A DNA stretch of 64,000 nt from Escherichia virus TH54, in the sequence record MT446420.1; one strand, 5' to 3'. The notes beneath the pieces are model-generated. The model was not told where the DNA came from. It saw nothing but the letters and a program-made list of their open reading frames with translations, and did not search any database. Below, in pieces: positions 11,135-33,119 of this stretch; position 1 is the stretch's first letter; every line of letters begins with the position of its first letter. A program made the translations under genes and the position numbers.

Positions 11135-11881
11135 ATGATTTTATCCGGAAGAACTGTTGATGAACTCAATGAAAAAGTCCAGGCTGCCTTGGCTAATAAT
11201 TGGTATTTGTTTGGTTCGACTATGGTGTTGCCGAATACCCCTACGGATAGCAAAGAGCGTTTTTTCCAAACTATGTCCAGCTCGGAAACTCAGATACCGG
11301 GTCCACCTGGTCCCAAAGGAGAACCGGGTGTACCAGGACCAAAAGGAGACCCAGGTGGGGATGGAAAATCTTCTTATCAGATATGGCTTGACTTGGGAAA
11401 TACAGGAACTGTTGATGATTTTTTAACTGATACAGCAGGAAAGAGGGAAAAATCCGAGGTGTTTTGGAGTGGTATAAACGTTCTATTAACCAATGGTGTG
11501 ACTTCAAACATAATTAGTGTTTTAAAGGGGATTCCACCGACTGCAGGGACTCTATCTCCGTTTTTTAGAACCACTGATGATAAGTTGTGGCCATATAACC
11601 AAGACAGAAGCCTAATGTTTAAACTCAACCTTATTGGTAATTTTGCAGGAGCCTCGCAAGCTCGAAGTATAACATTAAATTTCGTTGGAACCAACGGAAA
11701 CACTTATATACAGAATCGTCCGGAAAATGCTACAGATATTTTGTCTTTTACAACGTTCTTTAGCATTGATAAAGATGGGGCAATGGCAACCAATGGTACA
11801 GCTATAACTGTTATGCCAAATGGCGGCAACTTTACAATAACCTCTGCATTGTTAGTAGCCGAACAAACAGTGACTTCATAA
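11135..11881 (+). CDS. collagen-like repeat protein (Gly-X-Y x8) with beta-rich C-terminal domain; opposite strand to flanking genes
   Basis: GPPGPKGEPGVPGPKGDPGGDG repeat; AGGAG RBS; terminator hairpin downstream. Confidence 0.7.
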   Translation: MILSGRTVDELNEKVQAALANNWYLFGSTMVLPNTPTDSKERFFQTMSSSETQIPGPPGPKGEPGVPGPKGDPGGDGKSSYQIWLDLGNTGTVDDFLTDTAGKREKSEVFWSGINVLLTNGVTSNIISVLKGIPPTAGTLSPFFRTTDDKLWPYNQDRSLMFKLNLIGNFAGASQARSITLNFVGTNGNTYIQNRPENATDILSFTTFFSIDKDGAMATNGTAITVMPNGGNFTITSALLVAEQTVTS

Positions 11882-16310: not shown

Positions 16311-16586
16311 TTATAATCTTTTAAACTTGAAACAATATATTGCAAATAAATCAGAAAAATGGCTATCAACCCATATTCTTTGCACTGGACTAGTAACAGT
16401 CAGCATATAATGTGCTTTTTGTAAATTTATTCCATTTTTATTCGGACATTCTTTATTAACAGAATGGTACGTGCTTGCTACTATTTCAATTTCCCTTTCA
16501 TATCTCTCGCTATCTGTTTGTGTGGGGATAAATGCAATTCCAGCAATAACAAAAATAGAGATATACGTCCAAATCTTATATATCAT
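16311..16586 (-). CDS. membrane-anchored hypothetical protein, 91 aa
   Basis: N-terminal TM helix. Confidence 0.5.
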   Translation of the reverse strand: MIYKIWTYISIFVIAGIAFIPTQTDSERYEREIEIVASTYHSVNKECPNKNGINLQKAHYMLTVTSPVQRIWVDSHFSDLFAIYCFKFKRL

Positions 16587-16593
16587 AAGGACC

Positions 16594-17166
16594 TCAGCTT
16601 GTCAATTCGAGCCAATGTTTCCTGCATAAAGATACGTACGATTCATTCCCACCGACCAATACTTGCTCGCCGTCCTTTACAGCAGCACCGTCGATTACTC
16701 GAGCGGTCATGGTTGCTTTCCGGCCGCAATGGCAGACGCCCTTTAATTCAACCAGTTTATCCGAAATAGCCAGAAGTCTGGCTGAACCGGGAAATAACTG
16801 ACCCCGAAAATCTGTTCTTAGCCCGTAACACATAACGGGGATATTGTAATTATCAACCACTCGTGCTAACTGGTCAATTTGCTCTGGCAACAAAAATTGA
16901 GCTTCATCGACCAGGACACAATGGATGTCCTTTTGAGACTCGGCCCATTTATAGAATTCAAACAGGTTCATGTCGGCCGTTACCAGGTTTGCTTCCTGGC
17001 TAATACCAATACGTGATTTAATTTCAGATTCCGAGTCCCGATTATCAATAACAGGCTTTAGCAAAAGCACACTCATTCCACGCTCTTTATAGGAATAAGC
17101 GGCAGTCAGCAATGAAGCTGTTTTGCCTGCATTCATTGCTGCGTAATGATAAATTAAACTCGCCAT
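16594..17166 (-). CDS. tk: thymidine kinase
   Basis: Walker A NAGKTASLL; Cys cluster; size as T4 Tk. Confidence 0.95.
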   Translation of the reverse strand: MASLIYHYAAMNAGKTASLLTAAYSYKERGMSVLLLKPVIDNRDSESEIKSRIGISQEANLVTADMNLFEFYKWAESQKDIHCVLVDEAQFLLPEQIDQLARVVDNYNIPVMCYGLRTDFRGQLFPGSARLLAISDKLVELKGVCHCGRKATMTARVIDGAAVKDGEQVLVGGNESYVSLCRKHWLELTS

Positions 17167-17175
17167 ATCACCTTC

Positions 17176-17361
17176 TTAAAGCGTATTCACATAAGCTATT
17201 AATTCGTTTTCTTTCTCATCAAATCGATTAGCAAATTCTTCCAGATGGTCGGCATCTATCGGGCCATATTCATCATAAAAGGCGTTTGCTTCCGTATGCT
17301 CGTCCAAAAGCTCATGGATAAGCTCAAACAATCTACTTTTCTGACTAATACTTAAACTCAT
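17176..17361 (-). CDS. hypothetical acidic protein, 61 aa
   Basis: ORF track. Confidence 0.5.
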   Translation of the reverse strand: MSLSISQKSRLFELIHELLDEHTEANAFYDEYGPIDADHLEEFANRFDEKENELIAYVNTL

Positions 17362-17564
17362 TTCAGTTCACCATATCGTACAAATTCAGGGTGTTCACAA
17401 TCACCAGAATGGAGACCTTCACCTTCATGGTTAGGACATCCTTTATTAGAACAGTACCACCAGTAATCAAATCCACATTCCATTTCATCGTTGCATAAAA
17501 CTGCGATTACTGGCCATTCGCATTTTTCACATTTGGCCGTTTTAAGAATTCGGGCTTGGCTCAT
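17358..17564 (-). CDS. Cys-rich small protein, 68 aa
   Basis: CEKC...CNDEMEC...CSNKGC...CEHP. Confidence 0.55.
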   Translation of the reverse strand: MSQARILKTAKCEKCEWPVIAVLCNDEMECGFDYWWYCSNKGCPNHEGEGLHSGDCEHPEFVRYGELK

Positions 17565-18015
17565 AATCCACCACTATTAAATCAATATCAGGAGTAAACA
17601 TGTCGATTAATTTAGAAACCTTATCCCAATCGCCGCCAGCAATACCACAACCAATACGAGGAATATAAATTACCGGTTTAAACAAAAGGGTTTCTGCCTG
17701 TAGATTTAATTCTATCATACAATTTACTAAAGCGCCATAATCAAGATTAGGGCCCGGTTCATATTGGGTGTACAAATTATAACACATACCAAACCCAGTA
17801 GGCTTATGTTTAAAAACAATAGACATATCACCGAGTTTTTCTCTGGAACCATATTCAGTAGTGGTTTTATCTATTTCTAAAACTTTTGGATAAGCCTTCG
17901 CCAACTGTCCAGCTACGCCAGAACCCATTGTGTGAAAGCAGTTGCAACCATGTGCAATAATATTGCCTTGAAGAAAGAGGGCGACAATATCGCCCTTAAT
18001 ATACTGGGTAATCAT
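17542..18015 (-). CDS. macro-domain (ADP-ribose binding/processing) protein
   Basis: HGCNC...MGSGVAGQL and IPRIGCGIAGGDW motifs. Confidence 0.75.
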   Translation of the reverse strand: MITQYIKGDIVALFLQGNIIAHGCNCFHTMGSGVAGQLAKAYPKVLEIDKTTTEYGSREKLGDMSIVFKHKPTGFGMCYNLYTQYEPGPNLDYGALVNCMIELNLQAETLLFKPVIYIPRIGCGIAGGDWDKVSKLIDMFTPDIDLIVVDYEPSPNS

Positions 18016-18371
18016 TTAGAGTTCAATCCTCTATTATATGAATCCACTAACCTGTCAACCATACTGGTGCAGGCCGCCTTATATTTTGCACTTGAAAGAA
18101 TGCAATCCATTTCAAATAATTTCTTTTCATATTTGTTGGATAATACATTCTTTTTCAAAAGTGTATGTTCAACATCATTTTGACCATCTTTATATGCCGC
18201 GGTGAGCTTGGCGCTGAACTGGATTACACAATCCACATTGCTTGCTGCGCAATAATCTTTAGCCGTCCTCGTTGCATATTCTATGATGCTGTTGTTGTCA
18301 TCGCTCTGTACTGAAGCTATTCCTCCCATGCTGAATACTAACCCTATGGCTAAAGTGATAACTCTTACCAT
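18012..18371 (-). CDS. secreted/periplasmic hypothetical protein, 119 aa
   Basis: N-terminal signal peptide. Confidence 0.6.
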   Translation of the reverse strand: MVRVITLAIGLVFSMGGIASVQSDDNNSIIEYATRTAKDYCAASNVDCVIQFSAKLTAAYKDGQNDVEHTLLKKNVLSNKYEKKLFEMDCILSSAKYKAACTSMVDRLVDSYNRGLNSK

Positions 18372-18373
18372 TT

Positions 18374-18916
18374 TTAATCCACCGTTTTTAATAGGCCTCG
18401 TGATTTTAAGTAGTTAGCTTTTTCTAGGACTTGTGAAGCATACTTATTACCAGCTTTCACATTCCACCCTGCGTTATATGATGATAGTGTTTTCCTTATA
18501 TCCCCCTTATGAATATCCAACCAGTATGAAAGCTCAATGTAAGCCCAGCGTGCACTGTTCTCTCTCTTGCTTATCATCTTGATTATTTCTTTATCTGTCA
18601 TTGTCCACCCAACCTGTTTCACGCGTTCGCGCACGGTTGGAAGATAATTTTGGAATATACCATATGCATGGTGCTTATCTTTATTTAATCCAGTATTAAT
18701 CCCAGCAGAACTCTCCTGCCAGGTTAAACCAGCCATGATATATCCCAAACCATTATGTTGGTGCGGATTTTCTTTGTACTTACCATTTTTCTGGAACTGT
18801 TCTCCAAACGCATAAGCATATTGAAGGTTTTCCATTTGTTCATTACTGAAAGTAGGCTCTACGCTATGGGCAGACATACTAACTGTCAATAGTAAGGTGG
18901 CGATTACTTTTTTCAT
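18374..18916 (-). CDS. secreted protein with weak lytic-transglycosylase-like motifs
   Basis: signal peptide MKKVIATLLLTVSMSAHS; QES...GIFQ...YNAG. Confidence 0.55.
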   Translation of the reverse strand: MKKVIATLLLTVSMSAHSVEPTFSNEQMENLQYAYAFGEQFQKNGKYKENPHQHNGLGYIMAGLTWQESSAGINTGLNKDKHHAYGIFQNYLPTVRERVKQVGWTMTDKEIIKMISKRENSARWAYIELSYWLDIHKGDIRKTLSSYNAGWNVKAGNKYASQVLEKANYLKSRGLLKTVD

Positions 18917-18926
18917 GAATTCCCCA

Positions 18927-19385
18927 TTAGATATAAATCACTTTTGTGCTAATTTTTCCTTCCAGACGATTAGAGTTAACAAACGCCATACGGCAACACA
19001 TGGTTGGAGACTTCCCAGGAATAGCGGGGTTAACTGTCATTCCTAACCATAGGTTCTTGTCCGTGATTTCCAGACGAAGTGGACGGTAGTTCACATTCGG
19101 GTCAATTTGTGCTTCAACTTCCGGGAGTGGTTTCATCTCCAAGAATTCAACGATTTCTTTTACATGTGGTGTGATTTTTCCAAACAAGTCAAAAACATAT
19201 TGTTCATCAATTTCACGCTGGATTGCACGGTCCAATAGGTGTGGACTGTACTTAATGAAGAATGCTTCAAGGCCTGCTTCTTTACAAGCCTTGTTGATAG
19301 CATTATTAATTTTGAGGAACTCCGTTTCAAAAATGCGACGAAGTTTATTGCGGCGAATGTAAACACTTGAATCGATAGTAGTCAT
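18927..19385 (-). CDS. regB: sequence-specific endoribonuclease RegB
   Basis: 152 aa; VYIRRNKLRR...HLLDRAIQREIDE matches remembered T4 RegB. Confidence 0.9.
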   Translation of the reverse strand: MTTIDSSVYIRRNKLRRIFETEFLKINNAINKACKEAGLEAFFIKYSPHLLDRAIQREIDEQYVFDLFGKITPHVKEIVEFLEMKPLPEVEAQIDPNVNYRPLRLEITDKNLWLGMTVNPAIPGKSPTMCCRMAFVNSNRLEGKISTKVIYI

Positions 19386-19441
19386 GATTATCTCCTTTTG
19401 TTTGATGGGATAATCATAACTCATTTCAATCTGCTTGTACA
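19386..19441 (-). promoter_or_regulatory. early promoter-like cassette upstream of regB
   Basis: GTGTACA...conserved leader. Confidence 0.45.
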
Positions 19442-20021
<580 letters not shown>

Positions 20022-20025
<4 letters not shown>

Positions 20026-20255
20026 TTCACTTCCTCGCCAGTTGCGATATCATATTCCACCAAACGAATGCCGTCAGTCCAACCTTGCACGGAGATATAA
20101 GTAGTTGGATAAATCATTTCTTTACCATTCCACTGACCACCGTCCCAGCATTCCAGAAAGTCTTGTTCACCTGGTCCATTAAACCATTCAACAAATCTCT
20201 TCAAAGCTGCATCAGAACCTTCAATTGTCAATTTAGACATATTTTTTCCAGTCAC
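20022..20255 (-). CDS. hypothetical protein, 77 aa
   Basis: ORF track. Confidence 0.5.
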
Positions 20256-20532
20256 TAATTAATCGCACATCCTGGTCATACGTCAGGAGGCTACGAGTTA
20301 TAATACCCTTACATGGTCCAGAAATAAATTCCAGGGTAAAGTAAGGAACCAACTTCATCAAGCGAATACTCGGAGCAGTGCAACGAAATCTGGACCCAAT
20401 AAAAGGTCCAGACAAAAACACATACTCAAAGAAATTTGCTTTATTAAAGATTTCAAAATTCTTTACGAAATCTTCTGACCTAACCTTTGGAATAAAATAG
20501 ATTTGGTCAAAAAGCTCTTCATGGGTCATCAT
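20233..20532 (-). CDS. hypothetical protein, 99 aa
   Basis: ORF track. Confidence 0.5.
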   Translation of the reverse strand: MMTHEELFDQIYFIPKVRSEDFVKNFEIFNKANFFEYVFLSGPFIGSRFRCTAPSIRLMKLVPYFTLEFISGPCKGIITRSLLTYDQDVRLISDWKKYV

Positions 20533-21074
20533 TGCATTCCTATCACAAAGAACAGTGGACGTGTGGTTTGATTGGTTTCTTCACATGATGCACGACAGCA
20601 ATGTTGCACCACCTTTATATGGGCATCGTAAATTTTATCCATATCCGGTGTTTTAATAGGTTCATCAATTATATACAGAATACGTGAAAGTGATAATCCA
20701 CGGAATTTGCATGCAGTATTACCAATAAAACTACGAACAGAATCAGTGTACAAACGATACTTAATACTTTCTGTATGGTTATTAAAATATTCCTTTCTGA
20801 TTGCAGTAGCCGAAACATTAGCATATGCCGTGTTATTAGACAAAATAACAATAGAACCGCCATCAGCTAACCATTCCGTAGCAAAAATGGATACCGCTTT
20901 AGTTTTACCGGATTGGCGCCCGCCATCAAGTTTTAAGGTGCAGCATTCTTTAAACAGGGTTTGTGAATCGGGTACATAAAACCCACTATTACAAATGTGT
21001 TCTACTCTAGCATCAGAATGGTTTGCAAAAGCATTCATCAGGGATAGATAACTACCGGTTAAAAACGTTTTCAT
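20529..21074 (-). CDS. P-loop NTPase-like protein
   Basis: Walker A GGRQSGKT. Confidence 0.6.
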   Translation of the reverse strand: MKTFLTGSYLSLMNAFANHSDARVEHICNSGFYVPDSQTLFKECCTLKLDGGRQSGKTKAVSIFATEWLADGGSIVILSNNTAYANVSATAIRKEYFNNHTESIKYRLYTDSVRSFIGNTACKFRGLSLSRILYIIDEPIKTPDMDKIYDAHIKVVQHCCRASCEETNQTTRPLFFVIGMQ

Positions 21075-32966: not shown

Positions 32967-33043
32967 TGGTCGGGGTGGTGGGATTCTAACCCACAACCTA
33001 CGGTTTAGAAGACCGTTGCTCTATACAATTGAGCTACACCCCG
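32967..33043 (-). tRNA. tRNA-Arg (anticodon TCT), CCA encoded
   Basis: hand-folded cloverleaf: acceptor CGGGGTG/CACCCCG, D-stem GCTC/GAGC, anticodon loop CTTCTAA, T-stem GTGGG/CCCAC. Confidence 0.8.
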
Positions 33044-33045
33044 GG

Positions 33046-33119
33046 TGGCCCCATCCGGACTTGAACCGGAAACCTGCCAGTTATGAGCCGGATGCTCTAA
33101 CCAATTGAGCTACAGGGCC
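33046..33119 (-). tRNA. tRNA with anticodon CAT (Met or Ile2)
   Basis: hand-folded cloverleaf: acceptor GGCCCTG, D-stem GCTC/GAGC, anticodon loop CTCATAA, T-arm TCCGG-TTCAAGT-CCGGA. Confidence 0.75.

What the first reader, a model, noticed from the sequence alone, without database searches (positions are those of the whole stretch)
17542..18015. Macro-domain protein between tk and regB
Motifs HGCNC...MGSGVAGQL and IPRIGCGIAGGDW are typical of macro domains (ADP-ribose binding or hydrolysis). Reversal of ADP-ribosylation is a plausible counter to host ADP-ribosylating toxins or defences (DarT-type DNA ADP-ribosylation, NAD-derived signals) or a regulator of the phage's own ADP-ribosyltransferases.
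Basis: partly seen in the sequence, partly recalled or inferred. Interest (0 to 1): 0.5.

Follow-up and report, generated by a model that had tools for sequence, protein, structure and literature searches.

The report
Phage macrodomain AdfM (T4 Tk.4 ortholog)
This gene is the counterpart of phage T4 tk.4, recently renamed adfM, a small ADP-ribose-removing enzyme that lets T4 escape the bacterial DarTG2 defence, so it is a real but already described feature.

Summary
Window 17542-18015 (minus strand) is a 157-aa ORF carrying both quoted motifs. It matches Pfam Macro (E 2.8e-8), and an AlphaFold model (pLDDT 94.8) has the TARG1/Poa1p/BT1257/DarG fold.

The window is a T4-type phage (Gaprivervirus-like). 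The protein is 100% identical to a deposited protein of phage vB_EcoM_RZ. It is 58% identical to T4 Tk.4 and sits in the same slot, between the tk.3-like gene and vs.

A 2025 preprint found tk.4 to be the only T4 gene needed specifically on DarTG2 hosts and renamed it AdfM.

What I add: the family's invariant Gln84 occupies the position of the catalytic lysine of DarG (K80) and TARG1 (K84). Its active site (His22, Asn25, Gln84) resembles that of Streptomyces SCO6735, a lysine-independent hydrolase of thymidine-linked ADP-ribose on DNA. It is not a captured DarG: it has no DarT-binding domain and no adjacent DarT. It is only remotely related to the lysine-type PhiKZ protein that is also called AdfM.

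Hydrolysis by the T4-type protein has not been tested. Interest is low to moderate.

The parts
17542..18015 (-). Macrodomain gene, 157 aa; ortholog of T4 tk.4 / adfM
   Evidence: ORF. Pfam Macro E 2.8e-8. 58% identity to T4 Tk.4 over 153 aa, E 3e-70, in the same genomic slot. AF2 pLDDT 94.8. Foldseek top hits are TARG1, Poa1p, BT1257 and DarG.
17902..17952 (-). Residues 22-38, HGCNCFHTMGSGVAGQL: His22 and Asn25 plus the first phosphate-binding loop (M-G-x-G)
   Evidence: H22, G23, N25 and C26 are present in 119 of 119 ungapped sequences, and G33 and A35 in 121 of 121. H22 and N25 align with SCO6735 His24 and Asn27, and N25 aligns with PhiKZ AdfM Asn23. Mutating those residues lowers activity (PMC9411070, PMC13309987).
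17764..17778 (-). Residues 80-84, NLYTQ: Gln84 sits at the position of the catalytic Lys of DarG and TARG1
   Evidence: N80, Y82 and Q84 are present in 121 of 121 sequences. Q84 aligns with TARG1 K84, with TaqDarG, MtbDarG, Haliscomenobacter DarG and PhiKZ 'FPTK', and with SCO6735 Gln85 and the BT1257 Gln.
17626..17664 (-). Residues 118-130, IPRIGCGIAGGDW: second phosphate-binding loop; Ala126 replaces TARG1 Asp125
   Evidence: P119, G122, G124 and W130 are invariant. In the alignment to TARG1 'GCGLDRLQW', D125 falls opposite A126. G122 and G124 correspond to SCO6735 G126 and G128.
18012..18015 (-). ATGA overlap: the macro start codon overlaps the stop codon of the upstream vs gene
   Evidence: Read directly from the sequence. 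This suggests co-transcription and translational coupling with vs, which is an inference.
17542..17564 (-). 23-nt overlap between the 3' end of the macro ORF and the start of the downstream Zn-binding ORF (17358-17564)
   Evidence: ORF coordinates. The Zn-binding ORF matches PF23895 at E 2.7e-27.

Best explanation
The ORF is the ortholog of T4 tk.4 (adfM), a stand-alone ALC1-like-class macrodomain made as part of the tk-vs-regB gene block.

Proposed mechanism, as an inference: host DarT2 ADP-ribosylates thymidines in single-stranded phage DNA and blocks replication. This enzyme binds the ADP-ribose through its two glycine-rich loops (M30-G-S-G33 and G122-C-G-I-A-G-G128) and hydrolyses the thymine-ribose bond, restoring the DNA.

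Catalysis is probably lysine-independent, as in Streptomyces SCO6735. Gln84, held in place by Asn25, would position the distal ribose and the transition state, and a water molecule would do the chemistry. This differs from the Lys80/Lys84 route of DarG and TARG1.

What is shown: fold, family, orthology and active-site composition here, and the genetic anti-DarTG2 role of T4 tk.4 in a preprint. What is inferred: that this phage's copy has the same role, and that it acts by hydrolysis on DNA.
For: - Macro domain: Pfam E 2.8e-8. PADLOC DarG E 2.5e-8 and NCBIfam DarG E 1.2e-7, macro part only.
- Orthology: 58% identity to T4 Tk.4 over 153 aa, E 3e-70, with identical synteny tk.3 | tk.4 | vs.
- Fold: AF2 pLDDT 94.8. 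Foldseek top hits are TARG1, Poa1p, BT1257, Taq and Mtb DarG and ALC1, with TM about 0.7.
- Family profile against PDB sequences: BT1257 1e-19, TARG1 1e-17, SCO6735 1e-15, Poa1p 4e-14, Mtb DarG 6e-12.
- Conservation: Q84, N80 and Y82 in 121/121 sequences; H22 and N25 in 119/119.
- Equivalences: Q84 matches SCO6735 Gln85, DarG K80 and TARG1 K84.
- Literature on T4: tk.4 is the single DarTG2-specific hit, and the knockout is sensitised (10.1101/2025.11.20.689424).
- Literature on SCO6735: it cleaves thymidine-linked ADP-ribose on DNA faster than DarG or TARG1; Q85A is dead and N27S nearly dead (PMC9411070).
- Literature on PhiKZ: its macrodomain AdfM removes DarT2 marks in vitro (PMC13309987).
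Against: - No enzymology exists for any T4-type (Gln-type) phage macrodomain. The T4 evidence is one preprint with a plaque phenotype, and the delta-adfM plaque experiments were incubated at 30 C.
- This phage's copy is only 58% identical to T4's.
- The two SCO6735 lysines that matter for its DNA activity (K34, K89) and its longer 'mobile loop' are absent.
- The protein is acidic: pI 5.05 (family median 5.8), against 9.5 for SCO6735, 8.9 for TARG1 and 9.0 for Taq DarG. That is unusual for an enzyme that binds single-stranded DNA.
- Residue equivalences rest on sequence alignments plus a published structure-based alignment. I did not superpose structures.
Confidence: 0.7

Rival explanations
1. 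The protein protects against DarT2 mainly without catalysis, by binding and inhibiting the DarT2 toxin or shielding ADP-ribosylated sites, rather than by hydrolysing the modification.
For: Catalytically dead SCO6735 Q85A, DarG K80A and TARG1 K84A all inhibited DarT activity in vitro, and SCO6735 did so most strongly (PMC9411070). The T4-type protein lacks the catalytic lysine and the SCO6735 DNA-contact lysines, and it is acidic.
Against: There is no DarG-like C-terminal DarT-binding domain: 157 aa, matching only positions 3-149 of the 338-position DarG model. Active-site residues Q84, N25 and H22 and the phosphate-loop glycines are invariant across 121 sequences, which argues for selection on catalysis. 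Toxin-binding surfaces are not expected to be this conserved across phages of very different hosts.
Confidence: 0.1
2. Its main substrate is not DNA. It may be a Poa1p-like ADP-ribose-1''-phosphate phosphatase or O-acetyl-ADP-ribose deacetylase, or a protein (Glu/Asp) de-ADP-ribosylase that tunes the phage's own Alt/ModA/ModB modifications. In that case the DarTG2 phenotype would be secondary.
For: Historical annotation is 'phosphatase, A1pp motif'. The HxCNC motif is shared with yeast Poa1p, and Poa1p is among the best sequence and fold hits. SCO6735 also removes Glu-linked protein ADP-ribose.
Against: T4 has no known pathway that makes Appr-1''-p (own knowledge). Alt/ModA/ModB make arginine-linked ADP-ribose, which ARH-type enzymes reverse, not macrodomains (established knowledge). 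The counterpart of Poa1p Ser30 (mutated in PDB entry 6lft) is Thr29, and it varies: T in only 70 of 121 sequences. In T4 the gene was dispensable except on DarTG2 hosts.
Confidence: 0.1
3. It counters a different ADP-ribose-based defence: base ADP-ribosylation of RNA (CmdTAC-type, or uracil ADP-ribosylation) or NAD-derived immune signals such as those of Thoeris.
For: The family is very widespread, in 2,760 of 50,697 phage records across many hosts. Reversible uracil ADP-ribosylation of RNA involving DarT- and DarG-type enzymes has been reported (PMC13036486; seen only in the listing, not read).
Against: T-even phages are restricted by CmdTAC (abstract of PMC11618068), and they carry tk.4. SCO6735 was inactive on 5'-phosphate and 2'-OH RNA ADP-ribosylation. 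No macrodomain is known to degrade Thoeris signals (own knowledge).
Confidence: 0.05

Closest known systems
T4 Tk.4 = AdfM (anti-DarT factor Macrodomain), bioRxiv 10.1101/2025.11.20.689424
   Same: 58% identity over the full length. Same position between tk.3 and vs. Same HGCNC, NLYTQ and PRIGxGI motifs.
   Different: 42% of residues differ. The window protein has 'GCGIAGGDW' where T4 has 'GAGIGKGNW', and it carries a short C-terminal extension that overlaps the next gene by 23 nt. No experiment has been done on this phage's copy.
Streptomyces coelicolor SCO6735 (PDB 5E3B) and Bacteroides BT1257 (2FG1/2AFC)
   Same: ALC1-like-class macrodomain. Gln at the catalytic-lysine position. His, Asn and the loop glycines are conserved. 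BT1257 is the best PDB sequence hit at 1e-19.
   Different: About 25-28% identity. The window protein lacks the 5-residue-longer mobile loop and Lys34/Lys89, and it is acidic rather than basic. SCO6735 is a cellular, DNA-damage-induced protein, not a phage counter-defence protein.
DarG antitoxin macrodomain (T. aquaticus 5M31/5M3E, M. tuberculosis 5M3I)
   Same: Same fold and the same probable substrate. A significant hit to the macro part of the DarG models.
   Different: Lys80 is replaced by Gln84. There is no C-terminal DarT-binding domain and no adjacent darT. The score is 31 bits against the 250-bit equivalog cutoff. The motif is 'AHGCNC' rather than 'VNTVN', and 'PRIGCGIAGG' rather than 'PPLGxGNGGL'.
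PhiKZ gp104, also named AdfM (Cell Rep 2026, PMC13309987)
   Same: A stand-alone phage macrodomain that counters DarTG2. The Asn mutated there (N23) aligns with N25 here.
   Different: Only remotely related: BLAST E about 1e-3 on fragments and hhalign probability 95.8%. PhiKZ gp104 is DarG-like and lysine-type ('FPTKDNWR', 'PPLGCANGGL'). Its homologues occur in 276 phage records, against 2,760 for the T4 type. It is imported into a phage nucleus.
Human TARG1/OARD1 (4J5R)
   Same: Best Foldseek hit, TM 0.73-0.82. It shares 'PRIGCG' and 'MGAG'. It also cleaves thymidine-linked ADP-ribose on DNA (PMC9411070).
   Different: The Lys84/Asp125 dyad is replaced by Gln84/Ala126.

Membership tests
Macro domain (Pfam PF01661) | Profile match above the curated gathering score | tested here: met
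   34.2 bits against a cutoff of 22, E 2.8e-8, covering model positions 2-117 of 118
Macro domain (Pfam PF01661) | Three-layer alpha/beta/alpha macro fold | tested here: met
   AF2 pLDDT 94.8, pTM 0.89. Of the 50 Foldseek PDB hits listed, all but a handful of computationally designed serine hydrolases are macrodomains, at probability 1.00.
Macro domain (Pfam PF01661) | Glycine-rich ADP-ribose diphosphate-binding loops | tested here: met
   M30-G31-x-G33 and G122-x-G124-I-A-G127-G128 are invariant or nearly so in 121 sequences
T4 Tk.4 / AdfM (T4 type) | Full-length sequence homology to T4 Tk.4 | tested here: met
   58% identity, 153 of 157 aa aligned without gaps, E 3e-70
T4 Tk.4 / AdfM (T4 type) | Conserved position between tk.3 and vs in the tk-regB block | tested here: met
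   Window gene order compared with SP18 and T4
T4 Tk.4 / AdfM (T4 type) | Required for plating on DarTG2-expressing hosts | not testable with these tools
   Shown only for T4 in a preprint
DarG antitoxin (NCBIfam NF048014 / PADLOC DarG) | Score above the equivalog cutoff over the full length | tested here: not met
   31.4 bits against a cutoff of 250. Only model positions 3-149 of 338 (4-146 of 329 in PADLOC) are matched.
DarG antitoxin (NCBIfam NF048014 / PADLOC DarG) | C-terminal DarT-binding domain | tested here: not met
   The protein ends at residue 157, directly after the macro fold
DarG antitoxin (NCBIfam NF048014 / PADLOC DarG) | Catalytic lysine (Taq DarG K80) in the 'FPTK' motif | tested here: not met
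   Gln84 occupies that column and is invariant in 121 sequences
DarG antitoxin (NCBIfam NF048014 / PADLOC DarG) | Encoded next to a DarT (DUF4433) toxin gene | tested here: not met
   The neighbours are vs and a Zn-binding ORF. By contrast, the Haliscomenobacter DarG sits next to a DUF4433 gene.
SCO6735/BT1257 subgroup of ALC1-like macrodomains | Gln at the catalytic-lysine position, with a supporting Asn and His | tested here: met
   Q84, N25 and H22 align with Gln85, Asn27 and His24
SCO6735/BT1257 subgroup of ALC1-like macrodomains | Mobile loop five residues longer, carrying Lys89/Lys93, plus Lys34 in loop 1 | tested here: not met
   There is a gap opposite 'GSKG-A', G88 lies opposite K89, and S32 (Ala in most of the family) lies opposite K34
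SCO6735/BT1257 subgroup of ALC1-like macrodomains | Hydrolysis of thymidine-linked ADP-ribose on ssDNA | not testable with these tools
   Needs a biochemical assay
Poa1p-type ADP-ribose-1''-phosphate phosphatase | His23 and Ser30, the residues mutated in PDB entries 6LFS and 6LFT | tested here: inconclusive
   His is conserved (H22). The Ser30 counterpart is Thr29, and it varies in the family (T in 70 of 121).
PhiKZ-type AdfM (gp104) | DarG-like lysine-type motifs ('VNxVGVMG', 'FPTK', 'PPLGxxNGGL') and close sequence similarity | tested here: not met
   BLAST gives only two short fragments at E about 1e-3, and the motifs differ

The most novel reading that the evidence does not exclude
The T4-type 'AdfM' would be a separately recruited, lysine-independent (His22/Asn25/Gln84) base-ADP-ribose glycohydrolase. 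It would be a third variant beside DarG and SCO6735: a Gln active site, but with a short loop and an acidic surface. Its presence in about 5% of sequenced phage genomes, ten times more than the DarG-like PhiKZ type, would then reflect a wider substrate range than DarT2 marks alone. Candidates are other DNA or RNA base-ADP-ribosylating toxins, or an additional direct inhibition of the toxin.
Probability: 0.3. Interest if true: 0.45.

Novelty: already known. Interest (0 to 1): 0.2.

Why it matters
Practically, it predicts that this phage and its Gaprivervirus relatives resist DarTG2, which is relevant to host-range prediction and phage-therapy design.

Conceptually, two unrelated branches of the same macrodomain class have been given one name, AdfM: a Gln-type in T4-like phages and a Lys-type in PhiKZ-like phages. 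That suggests phages acquired a DarT2 antidote at least twice. It also suggests that the much more common T4 type uses the less understood lysine-independent chemistry so far described only for SCO6735. This is a modest refinement of published work, not a new system.

Tried and rejected
- **Promoter and terminator scan of 16400-20400.** It found 11 promoter-like sites against 12.1 expected and 2 terminator-like sites against 2.8 expected, so it is uninformative. The hairpin at 17996-17978 lies inside the ORF and is probably chance.
- **First structure job.** I redid it without T4.
- **PDB search with only the C-terminal 97 aa.** This was meant to bring DarG into the printed alignments, and it failed. 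I solved it by fetching a genuine DarT-adjacent DarG from a Haliscomenobacter plasmid and a SCO6735-like protein from a Streptomyces plasmid, then using those as queries.
- **hhalign of the family against PhiKZ gp104.** It gave a low-confidence, out-of-register alignment in the catalytic loop. I relied on MAFFT alignments that include DarGs instead.
- **'Captured DarG antitoxin' origin.** Considered and rejected, because four defining DarG features were tested and not met.
- **CmdTAC paper.** I checked it for a macrodomain link and found mentions only in the reference list.
- **Two literature queries** failed on the minimum term length, so the Aravind-group survey PMC9503650 was not read.
- **Not run, as not decisive:** the large representative-protein search and the metagenome and genome scans.

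Full report
**Observation.** Window 17542-18015 holds a 157-aa ATG-to-stop ORF on the minus strand. The start codon overlaps the stop codon of the upstream gene in an ATGA arrangement (18012-18015). The last 23 nt overlap the start of the downstream ORF.

The ORF matches Pfam Macro above the curated threshold (34.2 bits against 22, E 2.8e-8). It also matches PHROG 335, labelled 'phosphatase', at E 9e-71.

'Between tk and regB' is right only in the broad sense. The minus-strand order is tk (16594-17166), a DUF7438 tk.2-like ORF (17176-17361), a Zn-binding ORF (17358-17564), the macro ORF, vs (18012-18371), an SLT-like vs.1 (18374-18916) and regB (18927-19442).

**Where it comes from.** The 3-kb surroundings are 96-98% identical to Gaprivervirus-type T4-like phages such as vB_YenM_P8, vB_EcoM_RZ and SP18. 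The protein is 100% identical to one encoded by vB_EcoM_RZ. SP18 annotates the gene as tk.4.

T4's own tk.4 lies in the same slot between tk.3 and vs. Its product is 58% identical to the window protein over 153 residues without gaps, E 3e-70. This is a clear ortholog.

Homologues at E <= 1e-5 occur in 2,760 of 50,697 phage records. They span T4-like, Vequintavirus-like, Felix-O1-like, Ackermannviridae, Pakpunavirus and Vibrio phages, among others.

**Fold and class.** An AlphaFold2 model built on a 50-sequence alignment is confident (pLDDT 94.8, pTM 0.89). Its best Foldseek matches among solved structures are human TARG1, yeast Poa1p, Bacteroides BT1257, the DarG macrodomains of T. aquaticus and M. 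tuberculosis, Thermosipho DarTG and ALC1, with TM about 0.7. [quoted passage not shown]

A family profile scores the following against PDB sequences:
- BT1257: 1e-19
- TARG1: 1e-17
- SCO6735: 1e-15
- Poa1p: 4e-14
- Mtb DarG: 6e-12
- Taq DarG: 1e-9

The PADLOC and NCBIfam DarG models are hit at E about 1e-7 to 1e-8, but only over their N-terminal macro part. The NCBIfam score is 31 bits against a 250-bit equivalog cutoff.

**What is already known.** A November 2025 preprint (HIDEN-SEQ, 10.1101/2025.11.20.689424) screened a T4 transposon library on a DarTG2-expressing host. It found tk.4 as the single significant hit, and a clean knockout sensitised T4 to DarTG2. The authors renamed the gene adfM (anti-DarT factor Macrodomain).

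They inferred enzymatic removal of ADP-ribose from DNA but did not test it. They compare the protein only with Mtb DarG, and neither SCO6735 nor the active-site composition is mentioned.

It is also no longer new.

**Active site.** I recovered the sequences of the solved relatives from HMMER alignments, using as queries a genuine DarT-adjacent DarG from a Haliscomenobacter plasmid and a SCO6735-like Streptomyces protein. I then aligned them with the phage family.

The column that holds the catalytic lysine holds glutamine in the window protein, in T4 Tk.4, in SCO6735 (Gln85) and in BT1257. That lysine is TARG1 K84 in 'LITK', and it lies in 'FPTK' in Taq DarG (K80 is the published residue number, PMC9411070), Mtb DarG and Haliscomenobacter DarG. 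The profile-to-TARG1 alignment gives the same equivalence and places TARG1 Asp125 opposite Ala126.

In 121 sequences (the window protein plus its 120 best database homologues), Gln84, Asn80 and Tyr82 are present in 121 of 121. His22 and Asn25 are present in 119 of 119 ungapped sequences.

Hlousek-Kasun et al. 2022 (PMC9411070) studied SCO6735, which lacks the TARG1 and DarG catalytic residues. Their findings:
- SCO6735 cleaves thymidine-linked ADP-ribose on DNA faster than DarG and TARG1.
- Q85A abolishes activity and N27S nearly abolishes it.
- They propose a water-mediated mechanism in which Gln85 positions the distal ribose.

The phage family therefore has the SCO6735-type catalytic constellation. 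This makes hydrolysis of DarT2 marks chemically plausible despite the missing lysine.

**Differences from SCO6735.** The phage proteins lack the five-residue-longer 'mobile loop' and the Lys34 and Lys89 residues that contribute to SCO6735's DNA activity. They are also acidic: window protein pI 5.05 and family median 5.8, against 9.5 for SCO6735, 8.9 for TARG1 and 9.0 for Taq DarG. These are the main reasons to keep the DNA-hydrolase mechanism as an inference rather than a fact.

**Two different 'AdfM' proteins.** A 2026 Cell Reports paper (PMC13309987) independently named PhiKZ gp104 AdfM. It showed in vitro removal of DarT2-installed ADP-ribose from DNA, reduced by an N23A mutation.

Translating the published gene shows that gp104 is a DarG-like, lysine-type macrodomain ('FPTKDNWR', 'PPLGCANGGL'). 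It is only remotely similar to the window protein: BLAST gives fragments at E about 1e-3, and hhalign gives 95.8% probability.

PhiKZ-type homologues occur in 276 phage records, against 2,760 for the T4 type. Its Asn23 aligns with the invariant Asn25 here. Phages thus appear to carry two separate branches of the ALC1-like class as DarT2 antidotes.

**It is not a captured DarG.** Four defining DarG features were tested and not met: the equivalog score, the C-terminal DarT-binding domain, the catalytic lysine and an adjacent darT. Among the top 60 of 99 plasmid hits, only the lysine-type Haliscomenobacter protein sat next to a DUF4433/DarT gene.

**Rival explanations.**
- Non-catalytic toxin inhibition is possible, because dead SCO6735 still inhibits DarT. 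The invariance of the active-site residues argues for catalysis.
- A Poa1p-like phosphatase or deacetylase role, or reversal of the phage's own Alt/Mod arginine modifications, is unlikely on chemical grounds. T4 tk.4 was also dispensable except on DarTG2 hosts.
- Other ADP-ribose-based defences cannot be excluded, but nothing here supports them. T-even phages remain sensitive to CmdTAC, and SCO6735 is inactive on phosphate- and 2'-OH-linked RNA ADP-ribosylation.

**Verdict.** This is a genuine macrodomain gene, correctly spotted and correctly interpreted. It is the ortholog of a T4 gene whose anti-DarTG2 role has just been published, and its sequence is already in GenBank. The only increment here is the active-site classification: Gln-type, like SCO6735, and distinct from both DarG and PhiKZ AdfM. 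Novelty is 'already known', and interest is 0.2.

Noticed in passing
window 11135-11881 (+): A lone plus-strand 248-aa ORF sits among minus-strand early genes. Its C-terminal part is an Sf6-type tail-needle-knob domain (PF16532, E 3e-32). It is sporadic in T4-like phages: only about 10 phage records reach 80% identity or more, and the best (vB_YenM_P8, 99.6%) is annotated 'tail needle knob'. The knob half recurs in Ackermannviridae and Klebsiella phages. A structural-type domain in the early nrd/mobD region is odd.
   Followed up: partly
window 32967-33119 (-): There are only two tRNA genes, Arg-TCT and Met-CAT, in tandem. T4 carries eight in the corresponding region (own knowledge).
   Followed up: no
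window 17358-17564 (-) versus L001 2318-2733: The window has a single small Zn-binding ORF (PF23895) between tk.2 and tk.4. Shigella phage SP18 has two tandem small ORFs there (gp111 and tk.3). This probably accounts for the roughly 210-bp longer SP18 span and the two-piece megablast match. It suggests gain or loss of an ORF directly downstream of the macro gene.
   Followed up: no
window 18012-18371 (-), vs: The gene translationally coupled upstream of the macro gene is vs (valyl-tRNA synthetase modifier). In the same HIDEN-SEQ preprint, vs was the most strongly depleted T4 gene in minimal medium. Two conditionally essential accessory genes are therefore adjacent.
   Followed up: no
window 20529-21074 (-): A 181-aa ORF in the vs.x region has a borderline match to the N-terminal domain of the T4-type large terminase (PF03237, 22.7 bits against a cutoff of 22). 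The match may be spurious.
   Followed up: no
plasmid hits H91-H98, H117, H123: In Bacillus thuringiensis, B. velezensis and Cytobacillus plasmids, the best homologues of this macrodomain lie under genes annotated 'SLOG family protein'. This suggests macro-SLOG fusions or neighbours, which could point to nucleotide-signal-related roles for cellular relatives.
   Followed up: no
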